DNA of 14,398 bases from the IMG/VR virus record IMGVR_UViG_2548876961_000004; one strand, written 5' to 3'. The notes under the pieces are model-generated. The model searched no databases. It saw nothing but the letters and a program-made list of their open reading frames with translations, and was not told the DNA's origin. Shown in pieces: positions 5,287 to 14,398 of this stretch (the first letter of the stretch is position 1; each line of letters starts with the position of its first letter). The position numbers were made by a program, and so were the translations under genes. Source of the DNA: a virus (lineage: Duplodnaviria; Heunggongvirae; Uroviricota; Caudoviricetes).

Positions 5287-5495
5287 ACCAGAATGATATC
5301 GAAGCCATGATTCAGCGTTATACGGAAGCTGAAATGGCGGTGCTGGACGGAAAATCCGTCACCTTTAATGGTCAGCAGATGACCATGGAAAACTTATCTG
5401 AGATCCGGCAGGGACGGCAGGAGTGGGAGCGCCGCCTTGCGGCTCTGATTACACGACGACGGGGGCATCCCGGGTACCGGCTGGCGAGGTTCTGA
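5283..5495 (+). CDS. Head-tail joining protein, lambda gpW-like
   Basis: 70-aa product MNQNDIEAMIQRYTEAEMAVLDGKSVTFNGQQMTMENLSEIRQGRQEWERRLAALITRRRG..., same size and character as recalled lambda W (68 aa); ATG at 5283 overlaps terminase stop (ATGA) with GGAGG 6 nt upstream. An in-frame ATG at 5277 has no spacing to the RBS, so 5283 is preferred. Confidence 0.8.
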   Translation: MNQNDIEAMIQRYTEAEMAVLDGKSVTFNGQQMTMENLSEIRQGRQEWERRLAALITRRRGHPGYRLARF

Positions 5496-7004
5496 TGGCA
5501 ATTCTTGATGATGTGATTGGCGTTTTTTCACCAGGATGGAAAGCGGCAAGGCTGCGTTCCCGTGCGGTGATCCAGGCTTATGAGGCCGTAAAAACGACGC
5601 GGACACACAAAGCCCGGCGGGAAAACCGAACTGCCGACCAGTTAAGCCAGTACGGGGCCGTGTCGTTACGTGAGCAGGCCCGTTACCTTGATAACAACCA
5701 CGATCTGGTTATTGGTGTATTTGACAAGCTGGAAGAACGGGTGGTGGGGAAAAACGGGATTATTGTCGAGCCACATCCGGTATTACGCAATGGGGCCATT
5801 GCCCGTGATCTGGCAGCGGAGATACGCACCCGATGGAGTGAATGGTCTGTCAGTCCGGAAGTCACCGGGCAGTTTACCCGTCCGATGCTGGAACGTCTGA
5901 TGCTGCGTACCTGGCTGCGCGATGGTGAGGTGTTTGCCCAGATGGTTTCCGGGCGCATAAACAGCCTGACGCCTTCTGCCGGTGTTCATTTCTGGCTGGA
6001 GGCGCTCGAGCCAGACTTTATTCCCATGACCAGTGATGAGAGCAACAGGCTGAATCAGGGCGTGTTTGTTGATGACTGGGGGCGTCCCGAAAAATATCTG
6101 GTGTATAAAAGCCGTCCCGTATCCGGACGGCAGATGGAAACCAAAGAAGTGGATGCAGAGCGAATGCTGCATCTTAAATTTGTTCGCCGTCTGCACCAGA
6201 TGCGCGGGACGTCTTTGTTGTCCGGTGTGCTGATCCGCCTCAGTGCCCTGAAAGAGTATGAGGATTCTGAGCTGACTGCAGCAAGGATCGCCGCTGCTCT
6301 GGGGATGTACATCCGGAAAGGCGATGGGCAGAGCTATGAACCGGATGGTAATGGCAGCAAGGATAAGGAACGCGAGCTTACCATTCAGCCAGGCATTATT
6401 TACGACGATCTGAAACCCGGCGAAGAAATCGGAATGGTGAAGTCGGATCGCCCCAATCCTAACCTTGAAACTTTTCGTAATGGTCAGTTGCGTGCCGTGG
6501 CGGCGGGCAGTCGTCTGAATTTTTTCCAGTACAGCGCGCAACTATAACGGCACTTACAGCGCCCAGCGTCAGGAGCTGGTTGAATCCACTGATGGCTACC
6601 TGATCCTGCAGGACTGGTTTATTGGTGCCGTCACCCGCCCGATGTATCGTGCCTGGCTGAAACAGGCTGTGGCATCCGGTGTTATCAGGCTACCCCGCGA
6701 TCTTGACCGTTCTTCACTGTATACCGCGGTGTATTCCGGACCGGTGATGCCGTGGATTGACCCTGTTAAGGAGGCTGAGGCCTGGAAAATTCAGATTCGT
6801 GGTGGAGCAGCGACAGAATCAGACTGGGTACGTGCAGGTGGTCGTAATCCGGATGATGTCAAACGTCGGCGCAAGGCCGAAATTGATGAAAACCGCAAGC
6901 TGGATCTGGTATTTGATACCGATCCGGCCAGTGATAAAGGAGGCAGCAGTGCCGCAACGAAACGACAGGAGCCGCAGCACACCGACGACCAGTCCGAAGA
7001 ATAA
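5495..7004 (+). pseudogene. Portal protein (lambda gpB-like), interrupted by a frameshift at a T6 homopolymer (6520-6525): N-terminal part in frame 5495..6547, C-terminal part in the +1 frame 6519..7004
   Basis: ATG at 5495 overlaps gpW stop (TGATG). The frame stops at 6545-6547, while the adjoining +1 frame is open from 6519 and encodes a plausible continuation (...SSTARNYNGTYSAQRQELVESTDGYLILQDWFIGAVTRPMYRAWL...). Removing one T from the T6 run restores a single ORF of about 500 aa, the expected portal size. Confidence 0.85.
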
Positions 7005-7017
7005 TTCCTGGTTCAGG

Positions 7018-8976
7018 ATGCAGGCTGGTCACCAGAGTGACGCGGATATTTATATTTATGACGAGATTGGTTTCTGGGGTGTTACAGCGAAGCAGTTTAT
7101 CAGTGATCTGAATGCACTGGGCGATATCACCCACATTAATCTCAATATCAATTCACCGGGTGGCGATGTCTTTGAAGGCATCGCCATTTTTAATGCACTG
7201 AAAACACATGGTGCGTCCATTACCGTTTATGTCGACGGTGTGGCGGCGTCAATGGCGTCGGTCATTGCGATGGTGGGAAAACCGGTCATTATGCCGGAAA
7301 ACTCCTTCATGATGATTCATAAACCATTTGGCTTTACGGGCGGTGATGCGGAGGACATGCGCACCTATGCCGACCTGCTCGATAAAGTTGAGGCGGTTCT
7401 GTTACCCGCTTATGCACAGAAAACCGGGAAAACCACCGATGAAATTGCTGCCATGCTGGCGGATGAGACCTGGATGTCCGGTGCCGAATGTCTGGCACAT
7501 GGATTTGCTGATCAGGTGACGCCAGCCGTTAAGGCAATGGCATGTATTCAGTCAAAACGTACAGAGGAATTTAAAAAGATGCCGGAATCCATTCGAAACA
7601 TGATTACTCCGCCACGCAACAGTGCTCCACGCGTACAGGATGATGGACCTGCAGCCTCCCGGACGCCAGTGCAGGCAGCAGCACCTGTGGTGGATGAAAA
7701 CAGTATCCGTGCGCAGGTACTGGCAGAGCAAAAAGCGCGTGTAAACGGTATTAATGATCTGTTTGCCATGTTTGGCGGGCGTTATCAGACGCTGCAGGCT
7801 CAGTGTCTTGCCGATCCTGAATGTTCGCTGGAGCAGGCCCGCGAAAAGCTGTTGAACGAGATGGGGCGCGAGTCCACGCCATCTAATAAAAATACCCCGG
7901 CTCATATTTATGCCGGAAACGGTAATTTTGTGGGGGATGGGATCCGCCAGGCGCTGATGGCGCGTGCCGGATTTGAAAAAAACGAACGTGATAATGTCTA
8001 CAACGGGATGACCCTGCGTGAATATGCCCGTATGTCACTGACTGAACGGGGTATTGGGGTTTCCAGTTATAACCCGATGCAGATGGTCGGTGCGGCGTTC
8101 ACACACAGTACGTCTGACTTCGGTAATATTCTGCTGGATGTTGCGAACAAAGCCATTCTGCAGGGCTGGGAAGATGCCCCTGAAACCTATGAACAGTGGA
8201 CGCGGAAAGGTCAGTTGTCTGATTTTAAAATTGCCCATCGTGTGGGTATGGGGGGCTTCAGTGCTCTGCGTCAGGTGCGTGAAGGGGCGGAATATAAATA
8301 CGTCACCACCGGAGATAAACAGGCCACTATTGCACTGGCGACCTATGGCGAGCTGTTCAGTATCACCCGTCAGGCCATTATCAATGATGATCTGAATATG
8401 CTGACCGATGTCCCGATGAAACTGGGCCGTGCGGCGAAATCCACTATTGCCGATCTGGTTTATGCCATTCTGACGTCTAACCCGAAAATCTCCACAGATA
8501 ATGTAAGTCTGTTCGATAAAGCGAAACATGCAAACGTACTGGAGAGCGCTGCAATGGACGTGGCATCGCTGGATAAAGCCCGCCAGTTGATGCGCGTTCA
8601 GAAAGAGGGGGAGCGTCATCTGAATATTCGTCCTGCGTTCGTACTGGTACCGACGGCGATGGAGTCTGTTGCTAACCAGGTCATTCGCTCCTCAAGTGTC
8701 AAGGGGGCTGACATTAACGCCGGTATTATTAACCCGGTGAAAGATTTTGCGACCGTTATTGCAGAGCCTCGTCTTGATGATAACAGCCAGACCACCTTCT
8801 ACCTGGCTGCGTCAAAAGGCTCCGATACGATTGAAGTGGCTTATCTCAACGGTGTGGATACGCCATATATTGATCAGATGGAGGGCTTCAGTGTGGATGG
8901 CGTGACAACGAAAGTGCGTATTGACGCCGGTGTCGCGCCAGTTGATCACCGCGGTCTGGTGAAATGTACGGCGTAA
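7018..8976 (+). CDS. Prohead protease (ClpP/S49-like) - scaffold - major capsid protein fusion polyprotein
   Basis: 652-aa product: N-terminal ClpP-like serine protease domain (DADIYIYDEIGFWGV...NINSPGGDVFEGIAIFNAL...VDGVAASMASVIAMVG), central Ala/Pro/Gln-rich linker, C-terminal ~300-aa HK97-fold-type capsid domain. Starts 13 nt after the portal stop; start codon choice uncertain (weak RBS). Confidence 0.85.
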   Translation: MQAGHQSDADIYIYDEIGFWGVTAKQFISDLNALGDITHINLNINSPGGDVFEGIAIFNALKTHGASITVYVDGVAASMASVIAMVGKPVIMPENSFMMIHKPFGFTGGDAEDMRTYADLLDKVEAVLLPAYAQKTGKTTDEIAAMLADETWMSGAECLAHGFADQVTPAVKAMACIQSKRTEEFKKMPESIRNMITPPRNSAPRVQDDGPAASRTPVQAAAPVVDENSIRAQVLAEQKARVNGINDLFAMFGGRYQTLQAQCLADPECSLEQAREKLLNEMGRESTPSNKNTPAHIYAGNGNFVGDGIRQALMARAGFEKNERDNVYNGMTLREYARMSLTERGIGVSSYNPMQMVGAAFTHSTSDFGNILLDVANKAILQGWEDAPETYEQWTRKGQLSDFKIAHRVGMGGFSALRQVREGAEYKYVTTGDKQATIALATYGELFSITRQAIINDDLNMLTDVPMKLGRAAKSTIADLVYAILTSNPKISTDNVSLFDKAKHANVLESAAMDVASLDKARQLMRVQKEGERHLNIRPAFVLVPTAMESVANQVIRSSSVKGADINAGIINPVKDFATVIAEPRLDDNSQTTFYLAASKGSDTIEVAYLNGVDTPYIDQMEGFSVDGVTTKVRIDAGVAPVDHRGLVKCTA

Positions 8977-9665: not shown

Positions 9666-10244
9666 ATGAAGGGGCTTGAGAATGCCATCCGCAATCTGAA
9701 CAGCCTTGATACCCGTATGGTGCCACAGGCCAGCGCATGGGCGATAAACCGTGTGGCACAGAAAGCGGGCTCGGTTGCCACCCGGCAGGTTGCCGGGAAT
9801 ACCGTTGCGGGAGATAACCAGGTGAAAGGGATCCCCCTGAAACTGGTTCGTCAGCGTGTCCGGGTGTTTAAAGCCAGTCCGTCAGGAAAAATGACGGCCA
9901 GGATCCGCGTTAACCGGGGCAATCTGCCCGCCATTAAGCTGGGGACAGCCCGGGTCAGACTGGCCCAGCGTGGTGGAAAACTGCAGTACCGTGGCAGTGT
10001 GCTGAAGGTGGGTAAATATCTTTTCCGGGATGCGTTTATTCAGCAACTGGCGAATGGTCGCTGGCATGTGATGCGGCGTATTGATGGCAAAAATCGTTAC
10101 CCCATTGATGTGGTGAAAATCCCGCTGTCCGGACCGCTGACACAGGCATTTGAAGATGCCCGCGACCGCATCATTGCTGCGGAAATGCCGAAACAGCTGG
10201 GGTATGCACTGAAACAACAACTGAGGTTATGGCTGACCCGATGA
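9666..10244 (+). CDS. Z: Tail completion protein, lambda gpZ-like
   Basis: 192-aa product (same length as lambda Z) with strong recalled similarity (MKGLENA..., ...NGRWHVMRRIDGKNRYPIDVVKIPLSGPLTQAF..., ...LGYALKQQLR...); AGAGG RBS 6 nt upstream. Confidence 0.88.
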   Translation: MKGLENAIRNLNSLDTRMVPQASAWAINRVAQKAGSVATRQVAGNTVAGDNQVKGIPLKLVRQRVRVFKASPSGKMTARIRVNRGNLPAIKLGTARVRLAQRGGKLQYRGSVLKVGKYLFRDAFIQQLANGRWHVMRRIDGKNRYPIDVVKIPLSGPLTQAFEDARDRIIAAEMPKQLGYALKQQLRLWLTR

Positions 10245-10652: not shown

Positions 10653-11396
10653 ATGACCACGCCAAATCCACTGGCAAAGACGAAAGGTGCGGGGACGACG
10701 TTCTGGATGTATACCGGCAACGGCGATGCGTTTGCGAACCCTTTGTCGGACACTGACTGGCTGCGTCTTGCGATGGTGAAGGATCTGCAACCTGGCGAAA
10801 TGACCGCTGATGCAGAAGATGACACTTATCTCGATGATGAAGATGCAGACTGGAAAACGACAACCCAGGGGCAGAAATCCGTTGGTGATACTTCGGCGAC
10901 GCTGGCCTGGCGTCCGGGTGACAGCGGGCAGAAAAAACTGGTTCAGTTGTTCGACTCCGGTGAAGTCTGCGCGTTTCGTATCAAATATCCCAACGGCACT
11001 GTTGATGTTTTCCGCGGCTGGCTGAGCTCACTGGGTAAAACCATTGCCTCAAAAGACGTGATGACCCGCACAGTGAAAATCAGCGGTGTGGGGCGTCCAT
11101 ATCTGGCAGAGGAGGGCACTGAAACTGTGGGCGTTACCGGGCTGACGGTGGCACCGGCATCCGCCAGTGTCAATGTGGGAGCAACCACCACGCTGACCTT
11201 TACAGTAAAACCTGACGGAGCCAGTGACAAAGCGATCAGTGTGCATTCGACAGATCCACAGACAGCCACTGTGACCCTGAACGGACTTGTGGCCACGGTG
11301 AAAGGCGTGAAGCAGGGCAGCGTCAGCATTGTGGGCATGACCGCTGACGGGAATTTTGTGGCTGTGGCTGCGGTGACTGTCAGCGCTGCAGGTTAA
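10653..11396 (+). CDS. V: Major tail tube protein, lambda gpV-like, with C-terminal Ig-like (Big_2-type) domain
   Basis: 247-aa product MTTPNPLAKTKGAGTTFWMYTGNGDAFANPLSDTDW...YLDDEDADWKTTTQGQKSVGDTS...NGTVDVFRGWLSSLGK... closely parallels recalled lambda V (246 aa); strong AAGGAGG RBS 5 nt upstream. Confidence 0.93.
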   Translation: MTTPNPLAKTKGAGTTFWMYTGNGDAFANPLSDTDWLRLAMVKDLQPGEMTADAEDDTYLDDEDADWKTTTQGQKSVGDTSATLAWRPGDSGQKKLVQLFDSGEVCAFRIKYPNGTVDVFRGWLSSLGKTIASKDVMTRTVKISGVGRPYLAEEGTETVGVTGLTVAPASASVNVGATTTLTFTVKPDGASDKAISVHSTDPQTATVTLNGLVATVKGVKQGSVSIVGMTADGNFVAVAAVTVSAAG

Positions 11397-11416: not shown

Positions 11417-11440
11417 GCCCCGGTTATCCGGGGCTTTTTT
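11417..11440 (+). terminator. Rho-independent terminator between V and G (GCCCCGG-TTAT-CCGGGGC followed by T6)
   Basis: Perfect 7-bp GC-rich stem at 11417-11423 and 11428-11434, then TTTTTT at 11435-11440. Confidence 0.55.
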
Positions 11441-11456
11441 GCAGGTGGAGAACATG

Positions 11457-11843
11457 ATGTTTCTGAAACAGGGCACGTTTAATTATGAAAAGCAGTCCGT
11501 GGTGCTCAGTGAGCTGTCCGGGCTGCAGAGAATTGAATATCTGGCGTTTGTTCAGCAGCGAACGGCAAAGTTTGATGCCGAAGAGGGAGAACTGCCGGAG
11601 GCTGAACGACAGATTGCTTTTCTGCGGATGGGGATGGATATCAATGCCTGGCTGGTTTCCCGCTCACTGTGGAATGCGGAACAGTCTCAGGATGTTGAGA
11701 CGCTTTGCGCATCCGTTATTACAACATGGTCGTATGATGCCCTGGGAGCGGGGGCGGAGATGGTTCTGTCGCTGAGCGGTATGGGAGCCATTGAGAATGC
11801 CGGGGATTTGGAGCATGAGGTGCTGACGCCGGAAAAGTCCTGA
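11457..11843 (+). CDS. G: Tail assembly chaperone, lambda gpG-like (alternative start ATG 11454)
   Basis: Product MFLKQGTFNYEKQSVVLSELSGLQRIEYLAF... parallels recalled lambda G (MFLKTESFEHNGVTVTLSELSALQRIEHLAL...); GGTGGAG RBS 6 nt upstream. Confidence 0.85.
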   Translation: MFLKQGTFNYEKQSVVLSELSGLQRIEYLAFVQQRTAKFDAEEGELPEAERQIAFLRMGMDINAWLVSRSLWNAEQSQDVETLCASVITTWSYDALGAGAEMVLSLSGMGAIENAGDLEHEVLTPEKS

Positions 11844-12181
11844 CGCGGGAAATGCAGTTTGTCATGCGGCTTGCCCGGGAGTTCCGGCGGGCAGACTGGC
11901 GGCGGATGCTGTCGGAAATGTCGGCCACTGAGCTTGGTGAGTGGGGCGATTATTTCCGGATGCAGAGCTTCAGTGATGTGTGGATGGATGCGCAGTTTGC
12001 CTCGCTGAAGGCATTGATCGTGAGAATGGTGTCCGGTAGCAGTGATGCTGCGGTGGCTGATTTCAGCCTTTTACCGGAAGAGAACGGGATACCGGAGCGA
12101 ACGGACGAAGAACTGATGCATCTTGGGGAAGGTATTTCCGGAGGTGTGCGTTATGGACCAGATAGCCAACCTGGTCATTGA
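11457..12181 (+). CDS. T: Tail assembly chaperone G-T fusion produced by -1 programmed ribosomal frameshift near the end of G (shift window 11819-11843; likely at GGAAAAG 11831-11837); T-specific part 11838..12181
   Basis: The -1 frame relative to G is open from 11819 and runs to TGA 12179-12181, encoding ...VLTREMQFVMRLAREFRRADWRRMLSEMSATELGEWGDYFRMQSF...; the arrangement is the conserved G/G-T frameshift of lambdoid tail operons. Confidence 0.7.
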
Positions 12182-14393
12182 TTTGGGGATTGATGCGGCA
12201 GAGTTTAAAAATGAAATTCCCCGTATCAAAAACCTTCTGAATGGTGCAGCCAGCGATGCAGAACGGTCTTCTGCCCGTATGCAGCGTTTTATGGAGCGTC
12301 AGACTCAGGCCGCCCGGCAGACAATGCAGGCGGCTTCTTCGGCTGCAACAGCCGCATCCGTCCATGCGCAGACGGTGGAGAAGAGCGCACAGGCTCATGA
12401 ACGCATGGCCCGCGAGGTGGAGCAAACCCGCCAGCGTATGGAGGCACTGAGCCAGAAAATGCGCGAGGAACAGGCGCAGGCCATGGCTCTGGCGGAGGCT
12501 CAGGATAAAGCGGCTGCTGCGTTTTATCGTCAGATTGACAGTGTGAAACAGGCCGGTGCGGGGCTGCAGGAATTACAGCGTATTCAGCAACAGATCCGAC
12601 AGGCCAGAAACAGTGGCGGGATTGGTCAGCAGGATTATCTGGCGCTGATTTCTGAGGTTACGGCGAAAACCCGTGTTCTTACACAGGCTGAGGAAGAGGC
12701 TACCCGACAGAAAGTGGCGTTTATCCGTCAGCTTAAAGAGCAGGCAACCCGCCAGAATCTTTCTTCTTCTGAGTTGCTTCGTGCTAAGGCTGCCCAGCTG
12801 GGGGTAAGCAGTGCTGCAGAAGTGTATATCCGCAAAATGGAGCAGGCAGGAAAAGCCACGCATTCGCTGGGTCTGAAAAGTGCAGCAGCCCGTCAGGAGA
12901 TAGGCGTTCTGATAGGTGAACTGGCCCGCGGCAATTTAGGTGCGCTGAGGGGATCCGGAATAACGCTGGCTAACCGTGCCGGGTGGATAGACACACTGAT
13001 GTCACCGAAAGGCATGATGCCAGGAGCGGTTATTGGCGGTATTGCCGCGGCTGTCTATGGTCTGGGTAAAGCCTGGTATGACGGTCAGAAGGAGGGGGAA
13101 GAATTTAACCGCCAGCTGTCGCTGACGGGGCATTATGCCGGAGTCACTGCCGGGCAGCTGTGGACGCTCAGTCGTGCTATTTCCGGGAATGGTATCACGC
13201 AACATGCTGCAGCCGGTGCGCTGGCTCAGGTGGTGGGGAGTGGTGCATTTCGTGGAAACGATATCGGTATGGTGGCGAGAGCTGCCGCACAGATGGAGCG
13301 ATCGGTTGGCCAGTCGGTCAGCGATACCATAAATCAGTTTAAGCGGCTGAAGGATGATCCTGTAAATGCCGCGAAGGCTCTGGACAATGAGCTGCATTTT
13401 CTTACTGCCACTCAGCTTGAGCAGATACGCGTCCTTGGGGAGCAGGGGCGGTCCAGTGATGCTGCACGGATAGCCATGTCTGCACTGGCAGAGGAAACCG
13501 GTCGGCGTACTGCGGATATTGATAATAACCTCAATGCGCTTGGCAGTACGCTGAAGTATCTGTCTGATTTGTGGAGTCGTTTCTGGGATGCGGCCATGAA
13601 TATTGGTCGTGAAGACTCGCTGGATGAACAGATTGCCGCTTTACAGGAGAAAGTGTCGCGGGCGAAAAGACTCCCCTGGACGGCATCATCTTCTCAGGTT
13701 GAATACGATCAGCAGCGTCTTAACGATCTTCAGGAGAAAAAACGCCAGAAGGATTTGCAGGATGCAAAAGAGCAGGCAGAGCGGAATTATCAGGAGCAAC
13801 AGAAACGCCGTAATGCTGAAAATGCTGCACTGAACCGGATGAATGAAACGGAAGCAGCACGACATCAGCGTGAAATAGCGCGTATTAATGCCATGCAGTA
13901 CGCCGATCAGGCTGTCAGGGATGCGGCGATACAACGTGAAAATGAACGTTACGAGAAAGCCCTGGCATCCGGTAAGAAAAAAACACGCGAAACCCGTAAT
14001 GATGAGGCCACCCGGTTATTGCTGCAGTACAGTCAGCAACAGGCACAGGTGGAAGGACAGATTGCTGCTGCCAGACAGTCAGCAGGCATTGCCACGGAAA
14101 GGATGACAGAAGCGCGTAAACAGCTTCTGGCTCTGCAGCAGCGCATCAGCGACCTGGACGGGAAAAAACTGACGGCAGATGAAAAGAGTGTGCTGGCCCG
14201 TAAAGATGAACTGATTCAGGCACTGACGCTGCTGGATGTAAAACAGCAGGAGCTTCAGAAACAGACGGCACTCAACGAGCTGAAGAAAAAAACAATTCAG
14301 CTGACCAGTCAACTGGCTGAAGAAGAGCGCGCTCAGCGTCAGCATGAACCGCCCCGGGAATCCTGGAGACTAAACTCCCTGAGAAAGAGGTAA
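12153..14393 (+). CDS. H: Tail tape measure protein, lambda gpH-like (N-terminal ~745 aa; ORF stops at TAA 14391-14393, 5 nt before the window end)
   Basis: ATG 12153 with GGAGG RBS 8 nt upstream, overlapping the end of T; N-terminus MDQIANLVIDLGIDAAEFKNE... parallels recalled lambda H (MAEPVGDLVVDLSLDAARFDEQ...); long Ala/Gln/Arg-rich coiled-coil region typical of tape measure proteins. Confidence 0.88.
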   Translation: MDQIANLVIDLGIDAAEFKNEIPRIKNLLNGAASDAERSSARMQRFMERQTQAARQTMQAASSAATAASVHAQTVEKSAQAHERMAREVEQTRQRMEALSQKMREEQAQAMALAEAQDKAAAAFYRQIDSVKQAGAGLQELQRIQQQIRQARNSGGIGQQDYLALISEVTAKTRVLTQAEEEATRQKVAFIRQLKEQATRQNLSSSELLRAKAAQLGVSSAAEVYIRKMEQAGKATHSLGLKSAAARQEIGVLIGELARGNLGALRGSGITLANRAGWIDTLMSPKGMMPGAVIGGIAAAVYGLGKAWYDGQKEGEEFNRQLSLTGHYAGVTAGQLWTLSRAISGNGITQHAAAGALAQVVGSGAFRGNDIGMVARAAAQMERSVGQSVSDTINQFKRLKDDPVNAAKALDNELHFLTATQLEQIRVLGEQGRSSDAARIAMSALAEETGRRTADIDNNLNALGSTLKYLSDLWSRFWDAAMNIGREDSLDEQIAALQEKVSRAKRLPWTASSSQVEYDQQRLNDLQEKKRQKDLQDAKEQAERNYQEQQKRRNAENAALNRMNETEAARHQREIARINAMQYADQAVRDAAIQRENERYEKALASGKKKTRETRNDEATRLLLQYSQQQAQVEGQIAAARQSAGIATERMTEARKQLLALQQRISDLDGKKLTADEKSVLARKDELIQALTLLDVKQQELQKQTALNELKKKTIQLTSQLAEEERAQRQHEPPRESWRLNSLRKR

Positions 14394-14398
14394 ACAGG

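What the first reader, a model, noticed from the sequence alone, without database searches (positions are those of the whole stretch)
11819..11852. G-T programmed -1 frameshift with a non-canonical slippery site
The -1 frame opens at 11819 and G stops at 11843, so the shift must occur within 25 nt. The only slippery-like sequence is G GAA AAG (11831-11837), a one-base variant of the lambda heptamer G GGA AAG. It retains the AAG to AAA lysine slip but pairs the P-site tRNA imperfectly. This suggests a different, probably lower, frameshift efficiency and therefore a different G to G-T ratio than lambda.
Basis: partly seen in the sequence, partly recalled or inferred. Interest (0 to 1): 0.45.

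Follow-up and report, generated by a model that had tools for sequence, protein, structure and literature searches.

The report
Ordinary phage tail-chaperone G-T frameshift site
This is the standard -1 ribosomal frameshift site that lambda-like phages use to make a small amount of the fused tail-assembly protein GT, and its G GAA AAG slippery sequence is the commonest version in this gene family and was already annotated in phage N15.

Summary
G (11454-11843) ends at TGA 11841-11843. The -1 frame opens at 11819, after TGA 11816-11818. G GAA AAG (11831-11837) is the only correctly phased shift-prone heptamer in the 25-nt overlap.

G matches Pfam Phage_TAC_2 (1.8e-39) and the -1 frame matches Phage_tail_T (5e-15). 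The pair lies between the major tail gene and the tape-measure gene. T-domain homology starts right at the heptamer, upstream of the first ATG.

The claim that the site is unusual does not hold. Among 41 G lineages (85% identity clusters, more than 20 named genera, mostly Enterobacterales), 34 carry G GAA AAG. Only 4, including lambda, carry G GGA AAG. The N15 GenBank record marks GGAAAAG as the "slippery sequence for -1 translational frameshift".

Synonymous positions are fixed. The preceding codon ends in G in 41/41 lineages, against 33% elsewhere in G. Published in-vitro work found G GAA AAG less slippery than G GGA AAG, so a lower G-T efficiency is plausible but has not been tested in the natural context.

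I found no significant downstream RNA structure. A Shine-Dalgarno-like GAGGTG lies 8 nt upstream and is a possible stimulator, but it is not conserved across the family. This is an already known, ordinary feature, although no record I opened for this clade annotates the joined GT product.

The parts
11454..11843 (+). Gene G, the tail assembly chaperone (129 aa; ATG at 11454 or 11457; stop TGA at 11841-11843)
   Evidence: Pfam PF06894 Phage_TAC_2, E = 1.8e-39. Annotated as gpG-like in Ayreon, mEp460, cdtI and RefSeq E. coli genomes.
11831..11837 (+). Slippery heptamer G GAA AAG. Zero frame: CCG GAA AAG. -1 frame: GGA AAA.
   Evidence: Same phased heptamer at the homologous codon in 34 of 41 lineages. 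Annotated as the slippery sequence in N15 AF064539.
11819..12181 (+). -1 frame carrying the T domain. Predicted GT fusion is 11454..11837 joined to 11837..12181 (242 aa, junction ...LTPEK|VLTRE...).
   Evidence: Pfam PF06223 Phage_tail_T, E = 5e-15. In the alignment with lambda, N15, mEp213 and Gifsy-2 GT, K128, E133 and F136 are invariant across the junction, and E133 lies upstream of the first ATG at 11852.
11816..11818 (+). TGA stop in the -1 frame, the 5' limit of the shift window
11817..11822 (+). Shine-Dalgarno-like GAGGTG, 8 nt upstream of the heptamer (its GAGG core is 10 nt upstream). Candidate stimulator, inferred only.
   Evidence: Predicted duplex with the 16S 3' end is -9.2 kcal/mol, against a gene average of -2.9. 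GAGGTG occurs in 57 and GAGGCG in 34 of the 92 copies matching the string search in the clade. A core SD 4-mer is present 6-17 nt upstream in 14 of 41 lineages.
11417..11440 (+). Intrinsic terminator (7-bp GC stem plus T6) between the major tail gene V and G. Context only.
   Evidence: Annotated as a terminator at the same place in Ayreon, mEp460 and N15.
10653..11396 (+). Major tail protein gene (V-like), the upstream neighbour
   Evidence: Annotation of phi458, Ayreon and mEp460
12153..14398 (+). Tape measure gene (H-like), the downstream neighbour. It overlaps the end of T by 29 nt and runs off the window.

Best explanation
This is the lambda-type G/GT tail-assembly-chaperone recoding site. 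Most ribosomes translate G to its stop at 11841-11843 and make gpG (129 aa).

A minority slip back one base when tRNA-Glu (GAA) is in the P site and tRNA-Lys (AAG) is in the A site at G GAA AAG (11831-11837). tRNA-Lys re-pairs perfectly with AAA. tRNA-Glu re-pairs with GGA through G-C, G-U and A-U. Translation continues in the -1 frame to 12181 and gives a 242-aa GT fusion with the junction ...LTPEK|VLTRE....

By analogy with lambda, the G part of both proteins coats the tape measure protein and the T domain recruits the major tail protein. The low shift frequency sets a high G:GT ratio.

Shown here: the frames, the homology, the phase, and nucleotide-level conservation of the heptamer. Inferred: that the shift occurs, that it is a tandem slip, its efficiency, and any help from the upstream SD-like GAGGTG or the nearby stop codon.
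For: Locus identity:
- Pfam assigns G to Phage_TAC_2 and the -1 frame to Phage_tail_T.
- Gene order is V, terminator, G, T, H.

T depends on the shift:
- The GT alignment with lambda, N15, mEp213 and Gifsy-2 puts the junction Lys in an invariant column. T-domain homology starts immediately after it, upstream of ATG 11852.
- The first ATG in the T frame lies 5, 9, 15, 23 or 51 codons downstream in different lineages, so there is no conserved independent start.

Conservation in 41 lineages:
- The phased motif is GG[A/G/C]AAA[G/A] in every lineage: 34 G GAA AAG, 4 G GGA AAG, 2 G GCA AAA and 1 G GGA AAA.
- The preceding codon is GCG, CCG, CTG, TTG, GTG, ACG or ATG (six amino acids). It ends in G in 41/41, against 33% G3 elsewhere in G.
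- Lys is AAG in 38/41, against 33% elsewhere. Glu is GAA in 34/34, against 59% elsewhere. A fixed G at position 1 is what re-pairing of the first base of the P-site codon requires.

Prior knowledge and literature:
- N15 record AF064539 annotates GGAAAAG as the 'slippery sequence for -1 translational frameshift'.
- A_AA.G is by far the most shift-prone tetramer in E. coli, and the X_XX.A_AA.G heptamers are the most efficient ones (PMC4066793).
Against: - No protein data exist for this phage. Every record of this clade that I opened annotates T as a separate CDS, with starts that disagree (window 11852, 11906 or 11918).
- In a reconstituted E. coli system G GAA AAG gave mainly 0-frame product and was described as unfavourable for slippage (PMC6924986).
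- I found no significant downstream structure. The 83 nt after the site fold with z = -0.59, and the family mean z is about -0.2.
- This copy may sit in a defective prophage, because its portal gene is split. The site may therefore not be in use here.
Confidence: 0.85

Rival explanations
1. The shift happens at the same site, but only tRNA-Lys slips on the A AAG tetramer. tRNA-Glu does not re-pair and GAA is irrelevant. The slip occurs either in the A site or in the P site while the next codon or stop is decoded slowly.
For: - The second-position mismatch GAA to GGA was called unfavourable for slippage in PMC6924986.
- A_AA.G alone gives up to 5.6% frameshifting with a strong stimulator, and even C_AA.G gives 0.93%.
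- Two lineages use G GCA AAA, where P-site re-pairing would be poor.
- In 6 of 41 lineages the heptamer is followed directly by a stop codon, and in 16 of 41 by one codon and then a stop.
Against: - Positions 1 and 2 of the heptamer are G G in 41/41 lineages, although position 1 is the wobble base of seven different codons. A slip involving tRNA-Lys alone gives no reason for that.
- Tetramers are about 10-fold weaker than the best heptamers.
Confidence: 0.2
2. There is no frameshift. T is translated on its own from ATG 11852, or from 11906 or 11918, as the public records of this clade annotate it.
For: mEp460, cdtI, Tritos, PhiR47_1 and RefSeq/PGAP annotate a separate T CDS starting at the ATG that corresponds to 11852. 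phi458 and Ayreon use later starts.
Against: - The annotated starts disagree with each other.
- The Met at 11852 is Leu in lambda, N15, mEp213 and Gifsy-2.
- Homology, including the invariant E133, extends upstream to the heptamer.
- The position of the first ATG varies from 5 to 51 codons among lineages.
- The only SD-like sequence in front of 11852 that I can see by reading the sequence is GGGA, ending 2 nt before the ATG. This reading was not scored.
- In lambda, T is made only as the GT fusion (Levin, Hendrix and Casjens 1993, cited in PMC5009743).
Confidence: 0.03
3. The signal is intact but is a relic in this copy. The window belongs to a defective E. coli O157:H7-type prophage that no longer builds virions, so the site is not currently used or selected here.
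For: - The portal gene is split by a 1-nt insertion in a T run near 6518. All 17 matching phage records lack the insertion.
- The listed E. coli chromosomes with a 100% match to this stretch include O157:H7 strains. In the one I opened (strain TR01), PGAP annotates two portal fragments.
Against: - The G-T region is 99.6-99.8% identical to the phages Ayreon and phi458, and the heptamer is unchanged in all 90 loci of the clade.
- The insertion could be a homopolymer sequencing error shared through a reference, or it could be bypassed.
- This question concerns use in this copy, not what the element is.
Confidence: 0.3
4. RNA polymerase slips on the A run and produces a -1 frame mRNA, rather than the ribosome slipping.
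For: None found here. It was considered because the run AAAA lies at the site.
Against: - The run is only 4 A. From general knowledge, transcriptional slippage needs runs of roughly 8 or more A or T.
- The phase-specific conservation of G at position 1 and of AAG rather than AAA fits tRNA re-pairing, not polymerase slippage.
Confidence: 0.01

Closest known systems
Phage lambda G / GT programmed -1 frameshift (Levin, Hendrix and Casjens 1993; Xu, Hendrix and Duda 2004, 2013, 2014, as cited in PMC5009743)
   Same: - Same Pfam families, same gene order (V-G-T-H) and the same -1 direction.
- The shift occurs at the homologous Lys codon.
- The T domain has no conserved start of its own.
- GT is about 35% identical to lambda GT.
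   Different: - The heptamer is G GAA AAG instead of G GGA AAG, so the P-site tRNA is Glu rather than Gly, with a G-U at the middle position after the slip.
- The G stop lies 1 codon after the heptamer, against 5 in lambda, and the overlap is 25 nt against 64 nt.
- This T domain lacks lambda's C-terminal duplication, so GT is 242 aa against 279 aa.
Phage N15 gp14 / gp15 (GenBank AF064539), and likewise HK225, mEp213 (phi80-like) and Gifsy-2 STM1039/STM1041.1n
   Same: - Identical heptamer G GAA AAG at the homologous position.
- In N15 it is explicitly annotated as the 'slippery sequence for -1 translational frameshift'.
- Gifsy-2 annotates T as 'part of G+G' frameshift hybrid protein' and shares ACG CCG GAA AAG TCC TGA with the window.
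   Different: - Protein identity is only 36-54%.
- N15, HK225 and mEp213 have 5 codons between the heptamer and the stop, and no SD-like element 6-17 nt upstream.
E. coli dnaX -1 frameshift (A AAA AAG, with an SD-like element 10 nt upstream and a downstream hairpin)
   Same: - The A-site slip is tRNA-Lys moving from AAG to AAA.
- The window has an SD-like GAGG(TG) whose GAGG core lies 10 nt upstream of the heptamer. From general knowledge, the dnaX element has the same 10-nt spacing.
   Different: - No significant downstream hairpin.
- The P-site codon is not slippery in the strict sense.
- The product is a longer fusion, not a truncated protein.
- The SD-like element is not conserved across the family.

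Membership tests
Lambda-type tail assembly chaperone G/GT -1 frameshift | Two overlapping ORFs lie between the major tail protein gene and the tape measure gene | tested here: met
   V 10653-11396, G 11454-11843, T frame 11819-12181, H from 12153
Lambda-type tail assembly chaperone G/GT -1 frameshift | The upstream ORF is a gpG homologue and the downstream ORF a gpT homologue | tested here: met
   PF06894 at 1.8e-39 and PF06223 at 5.1e-15, both above the curated cut-offs
Lambda-type tail assembly chaperone G/GT -1 frameshift | The downstream ORF is in the -1 frame, and its homology continues upstream of any start codon to the shift site | tested here: met
   Frames. Invariant K128, E133 and F136 across the junction. 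Variable position of the first ATG.
Lambda-type tail assembly chaperone G/GT -1 frameshift | A correctly phased slippery sequence lies in the overlap and is conserved at synonymous positions among relatives | tested here: met
   GG[A/G/C]AAA[G/A] in 41/41 lineages. G at position 1 in 41/41, against a 33% background. AAG in 38/41, against 33%.
Lambda-type tail assembly chaperone G/GT -1 frameshift | A GT fusion protein is made at a low percentage of G and is required for tail assembly | not testable with these tools
   Needs protein expression or genetics. No data on this clade turned up in the papers searched.
Canonical X XXY YYZ simultaneous-slippage heptamer | Positions 1-3 are identical, so the P-site tRNA keeps its non-wobble pairs after the slip | tested here: not met
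   Positions 1-3 are G G A. After the slip tRNA-Glu faces GGA, a second-position G-U. The site works like a relaxed heptamer, not a strict one.
dnaX-type stimulated -1 frameshift | An SD-like element lies 6-17 nt upstream of the motif | tested here: inconclusive
   GAGGTG at 11817-11822, -9.2 kcal/mol to the anti-SD. Across the family it is present in 14 of 41 lineages, against 7-8 of 41 in the three neighbouring 12-nt windows upstream. The peak at spacer 10 falls on a conserved Glu codon (GAG 17, GAA 15), so selection on the nucleotides is not shown.
dnaX-type stimulated -1 frameshift | A stable downstream hairpin or pseudoknot lies 5-9 nt after the motif | tested here: not met
   The fold of 11838-11920 has z = -0.59. 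The family mean z is about -0.2 and only 3 of 41 lineages fall below -2. No Rfam match in the window.

The most novel reading that the evidence does not exclude
G GAA AAG is intrinsically a poor shifter in vitro, yet it is the majority heptamer of the family. It may therefore rely on local context to reach a workable GT level. In this clade that context would be the SD-like GAGGUG 8-10 nt upstream, acting as in dnaX, and the stop codon one codon downstream. Different lineages would then tune the G:GT ratio through context rather than through the heptamer.
Probability: 0.25. Interest if true: 0.3.

Novelty: already known. Interest (0 to 1): 0.12.

Why it matters
The finding matters little as a discovery. 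The G-T frameshift is a textbook recoding event, and this exact heptamer was already annotated in N15.

Two practical points remain:
- No record of this clade that I opened joins G and T across the shift. This covers seven phage records and one RefSeq E. coli chromosome. The same G-T stretch is present in 1848 of 5426 complete E. coli genomes. The records annotate T with three different arbitrary starts, so the true GT product is missing from their protein sets.
- The survey shows that lambda's G GGA AAG, the usual textbook example, is the minority form. The 'imperfect' G GAA AAG is the norm, and any rule-based frameshift finder restricted to X XXY YYZ will miss it.

Tried and rejected
- Rfam scan of the whole window: no match.
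- Downstream stimulatory structure: the fold of 11838-11920 is not better than shuffles (z = -0.59). A 5-bp hairpin that starts right at the heptamer is too close and too weak to argue for. The family-wide mean z is about -0.2.
- SD-like stimulator as a family feature: at first sight it is enriched (12 of 34 against 3.3 expected from the rest of G; Wilcoxon p = 0.0006). With local controls the excess shrinks to 14/41 against 7-8/41, and the spacer-10 peak lies on a conserved Glu codon with no clear GAG preference. I kept it only as a candidate for this clade.
- Heptamer frequency as evidence: GGAAAAG occurs 6 times in the window against 2.2 expected, which is not informative on its own.
- Literature: Xu, Hendrix and Duda 2004 is not held. 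Full-text searches for GGAAAAG with frameshift, slippery, tail or bacteriophage returned only PMC6924986 as relevant. Whether that paper's table lists this heptamer could not be checked.
- Transcriptional slippage and independent initiation of T were considered and rejected (see rival explanations).

Full report
**What is in the sequence**

The region reads ...GAG GTG CTG ACG CCG GAA AAG TCC TGA in the frame of a 129-codon ORF (ATG 11454 or 11457, stop 11841-11843). The -1 frame has a TGA at 11816-11818 and is then open to 12181.

G GAA AAG lies at 11831-11837 in the X XXY YYZ phase. I listed every in-phase heptamer of the overlap, and no other candidate allows A-site re-pairing. The heptamer string alone is not remarkable: it occurs 6 times in the window against 2.2 expected. 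By my reading of the gene frames, the other + strand copies are phased GGA AAA G.

**What the genes are**

The upstream ORF matches Pfam Phage_TAC_2, the lambda gpG family, at 1.8e-39. The -1 frame matches Phage_tail_T at 5e-15.

The window is 99.6-99.8% identical over this stretch to Escherichia phages Ayreon, vB_EcoS-569R4 and phi458, and about 98% identical to mEp460 and cdtI. Its map runs: Q, lysis genes, terminase, portal, ClpP-protease/capsid fusion, head-tail genes, tail Z- and U-like genes, V, an intrinsic terminator, G, T, tape measure. The same G-T stretch occurs in 1848 of 5426 complete E. coli genomes.

**Evidence that T is reached by a shift at this heptamer**

- I built the GT fusion on the assumption of a slip at the heptamer and aligned it with the equivalent products of lambda, N15, mEp213 and Gifsy-2.
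- The junction Lys is an invariant column. The conserved start of the T domain (x-x-x-x-E-L/R-x-F-x-x-x-L) follows immediately after it.
- The invariant Glu133 lies upstream of the ATG at 11852 that most records use as the T start.
- That Met is Leu in the other four phages. The first ATG of the T frame lies 5 to 51 codons downstream in different lineages.
- Public records of this clade place the T start at three different positions, corresponding to window 11852, 11906 and 11918. That is what one expects when the true product is a fusion.

**How common the heptamer is**

I collected homologous loci from one genome per species (80 loci) and from viral contigs (80 loci, all close to the window). 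For each locus I located the G stop, the -1 frame and the phased heptamer. I then clustered the G proteins at 85% identity, which gave 41 lineages from more than 20 named genera, mostly Enterobacterales.

| Heptamer | Lineages | Where |
|---|---|---|
| G GAA AAG | 34 | Most genera surveyed |
| G GGA AAG | 4 | Lambda; an E. albertii prophage; Serratia/Symbiopectobacterium; Edwardsiella |
| G GCA AAA | 2 | Kluyvera genomosp. 1; Ewingella |
| G GGA AAA | 1 | Providencia rustigianii |

The 'non-canonical' heptamer is therefore the rule and lambda's is the exception. The N15 GenBank record AF064539 carries a misc_feature 'slippery sequence for -1 translational frameshift' at 10027-10033, and those bases are GGAAAAG. 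Gifsy-2, the closest relative outside the clade (54% identity), shares ACG CCG GAA AAG TCC TGA and annotates T as part of a frameshift hybrid.

**Nucleotide-level selection**

- The codon before GAA is GCG, CCG, CTG, TTG, GTG, ACG or ATG, which code for six different amino acids. It ends in G in 41 of 41 lineages, while G is the third base of only 33% of the other G-gene codons.
- The Lys codon is AAG in 38 of 41 lineages, against 33% elsewhere.
- The Glu codon is GAA in 34 of 34 lineages, against 59% elsewhere.
- A fixed G at heptamer position 1 is what re-pairing of the first base of the P-site codon requires (G2 replaced by G1). This favours a tandem slip, with tRNA-Glu going from GAA to GGA through G-C, G-U and A-U, over a slip of tRNA-Lys alone. 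The lineages are not phylogenetically independent, so I do not quote a probability.

**Efficiency**

Peng et al. 2019 (PMC6924986) used AUG GAA AAG as their example of a sequence 'unfavorable for slippage' because of the second-position mismatch. They obtained mainly 0-frame product with wild-type EF-G and called G GAA AAG 'less slippery' than G GGA AAG.

Sharma et al. 2014 (PMC4066793) showed that A_AA.G is by far the best tetramer in E. coli. It gives 5.6% with a strong pseudoknot and about 0.15% without one. The best tetramer remains about 10-fold weaker than the best heptamer with the same stimulator.

Nobody has measured it in the natural context.

**Context elements**

- I found no significant downstream structure (z = -0.59; family mean about -0.2), and Rfam gave no match.
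- Upstream, GAGGTG at 11817-11822 can pair with the 16S 3' end (-9.2 kcal/mol). Its GAGG core lies 10 nt before the heptamer. From general knowledge, the dnaX stimulator has the same 10-nt spacing. Among the 92 copies matching the string search in the clade, 57 have GAGGTG and 34 have GAGGCG.
- Across the family an SD-like core lies 6-17 nt upstream in 14 of 41 lineages, against 7-8 of 41 in the three neighbouring 12-nt windows upstream. The spacer-10 peak coincides with a conserved Glu codon that shows no clear preference for GAG (17 GAG, 15 GAA). I keep the element as a candidate stimulator for this clade only.
- The G stop lies 0, 1 or 5 codons after the heptamer in 6, 16 and 19 lineages. 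In the window it is 1 codon after.

**A caveat about this copy**

The portal gene of the window is split by a one-base insertion in a T run near 6518. All 17 matching phage records lack the insertion. The listed E. coli chromosomes with a 100% match include O157:H7 strains, and in the one I opened (strain TR01) two portal fragments are annotated. The window is probably a defective prophage, so the frameshift signal is intact but may not be in use in this copy.

**Verdict**

The G-T frameshift reading is supported. The claim of an unusual site is not supported. This is an already known and very common form of a textbook recoding signal.

Two useful by-products remain. None of the records of this clade that I opened annotates the joined GT product. 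Frameshift finders limited to strict X XXY YYZ motifs would miss the majority heptamer of this family.

Noticed in passing
window 5495-7004 (insertion near 6518-6525): The portal gene is split into 5495..6547 and 6642..7004 by a 1-nt insertion in a T run. The window reads CTGAATTTTTTCC where phi458 reads CTGAGTTTTTCC. All 17 matching phage records lack the insertion. The listed E. coli chromosomes with a 100% match include O157:H7 strains, and in the one opened (strain TR01) PGAP annotates two 'phage portal protein' CDSs. The window is probably a defective prophage.
   Followed up: partly
window 11417-11440: An intrinsic terminator (7-bp all-GC stem, loop of 4, then T6) lies between the major tail gene V and G. 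It is annotated at the same place in Ayreon, mEp460 and N15. It may attenuate transcription so that V is made in excess over G, T and H.
   Followed up: no
window 11852, 11906, 11918: Public records give three different arbitrary start codons for T, and no record opened for this clade annotates the G-T join. This includes the RefSeq/PGAP chromosome I opened. The same stretch is present in 1848 of 5426 complete E. coli genomes.
   Followed up: yes
L017, L019, L057 (G/T overlap, about 1580-1620 in each locus): Rare variants of the site occur. CTG GCA AAA TAG is found in Kluyvera genomosp. 1 and Ewingella americana, where the P-site tRNA-Ala would re-pair badly. ATG GGA AAA TAG is found in Providencia rustigianii. 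In 6 of 41 lineages the G stop codon follows the heptamer directly, which suggests that slow termination may help the slip there.
   Followed up: no
window 11838, and the same position in 41 lineages: The base just after the heptamer is always a pyrimidine (41/41). The next zero-frame codon is CCC, TCC, TCT, CCT, TAG and so on, and the first -1 frame codon after Lys encodes Val, Ala or Ile. I did not resolve whether this reflects a context effect on slippage or the amino acid needed in T.
   Followed up: no
L059-L064, L067-L070, L083-L085: G-T loci 100% identical to phage lambda sit on short contigs, several of them labelled with coverage near 1, in assemblies named Kitasatospora, Neobacillus, Oceanobacillus, Shewanella, Pseudomonas, Leeuwenhoekiella, Chromatium, Pseudoxanthomonas and others. 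This is most likely lambda DNA contamination of those assemblies. Similarly, L009 (a 'Bacillota' MAG) is 99% identical to the window.
   Followed up: no
window 7018-8976: A 652-codon ORF is annotated as 'putative protease' in phi458 and as 'ClpP-like prohead protease/major capsid protein fusion protein' by PGAP. It appears to be a fused protease and capsid gene, unlike lambda's separate C, Nu3, D and E genes.
   Followed up: no
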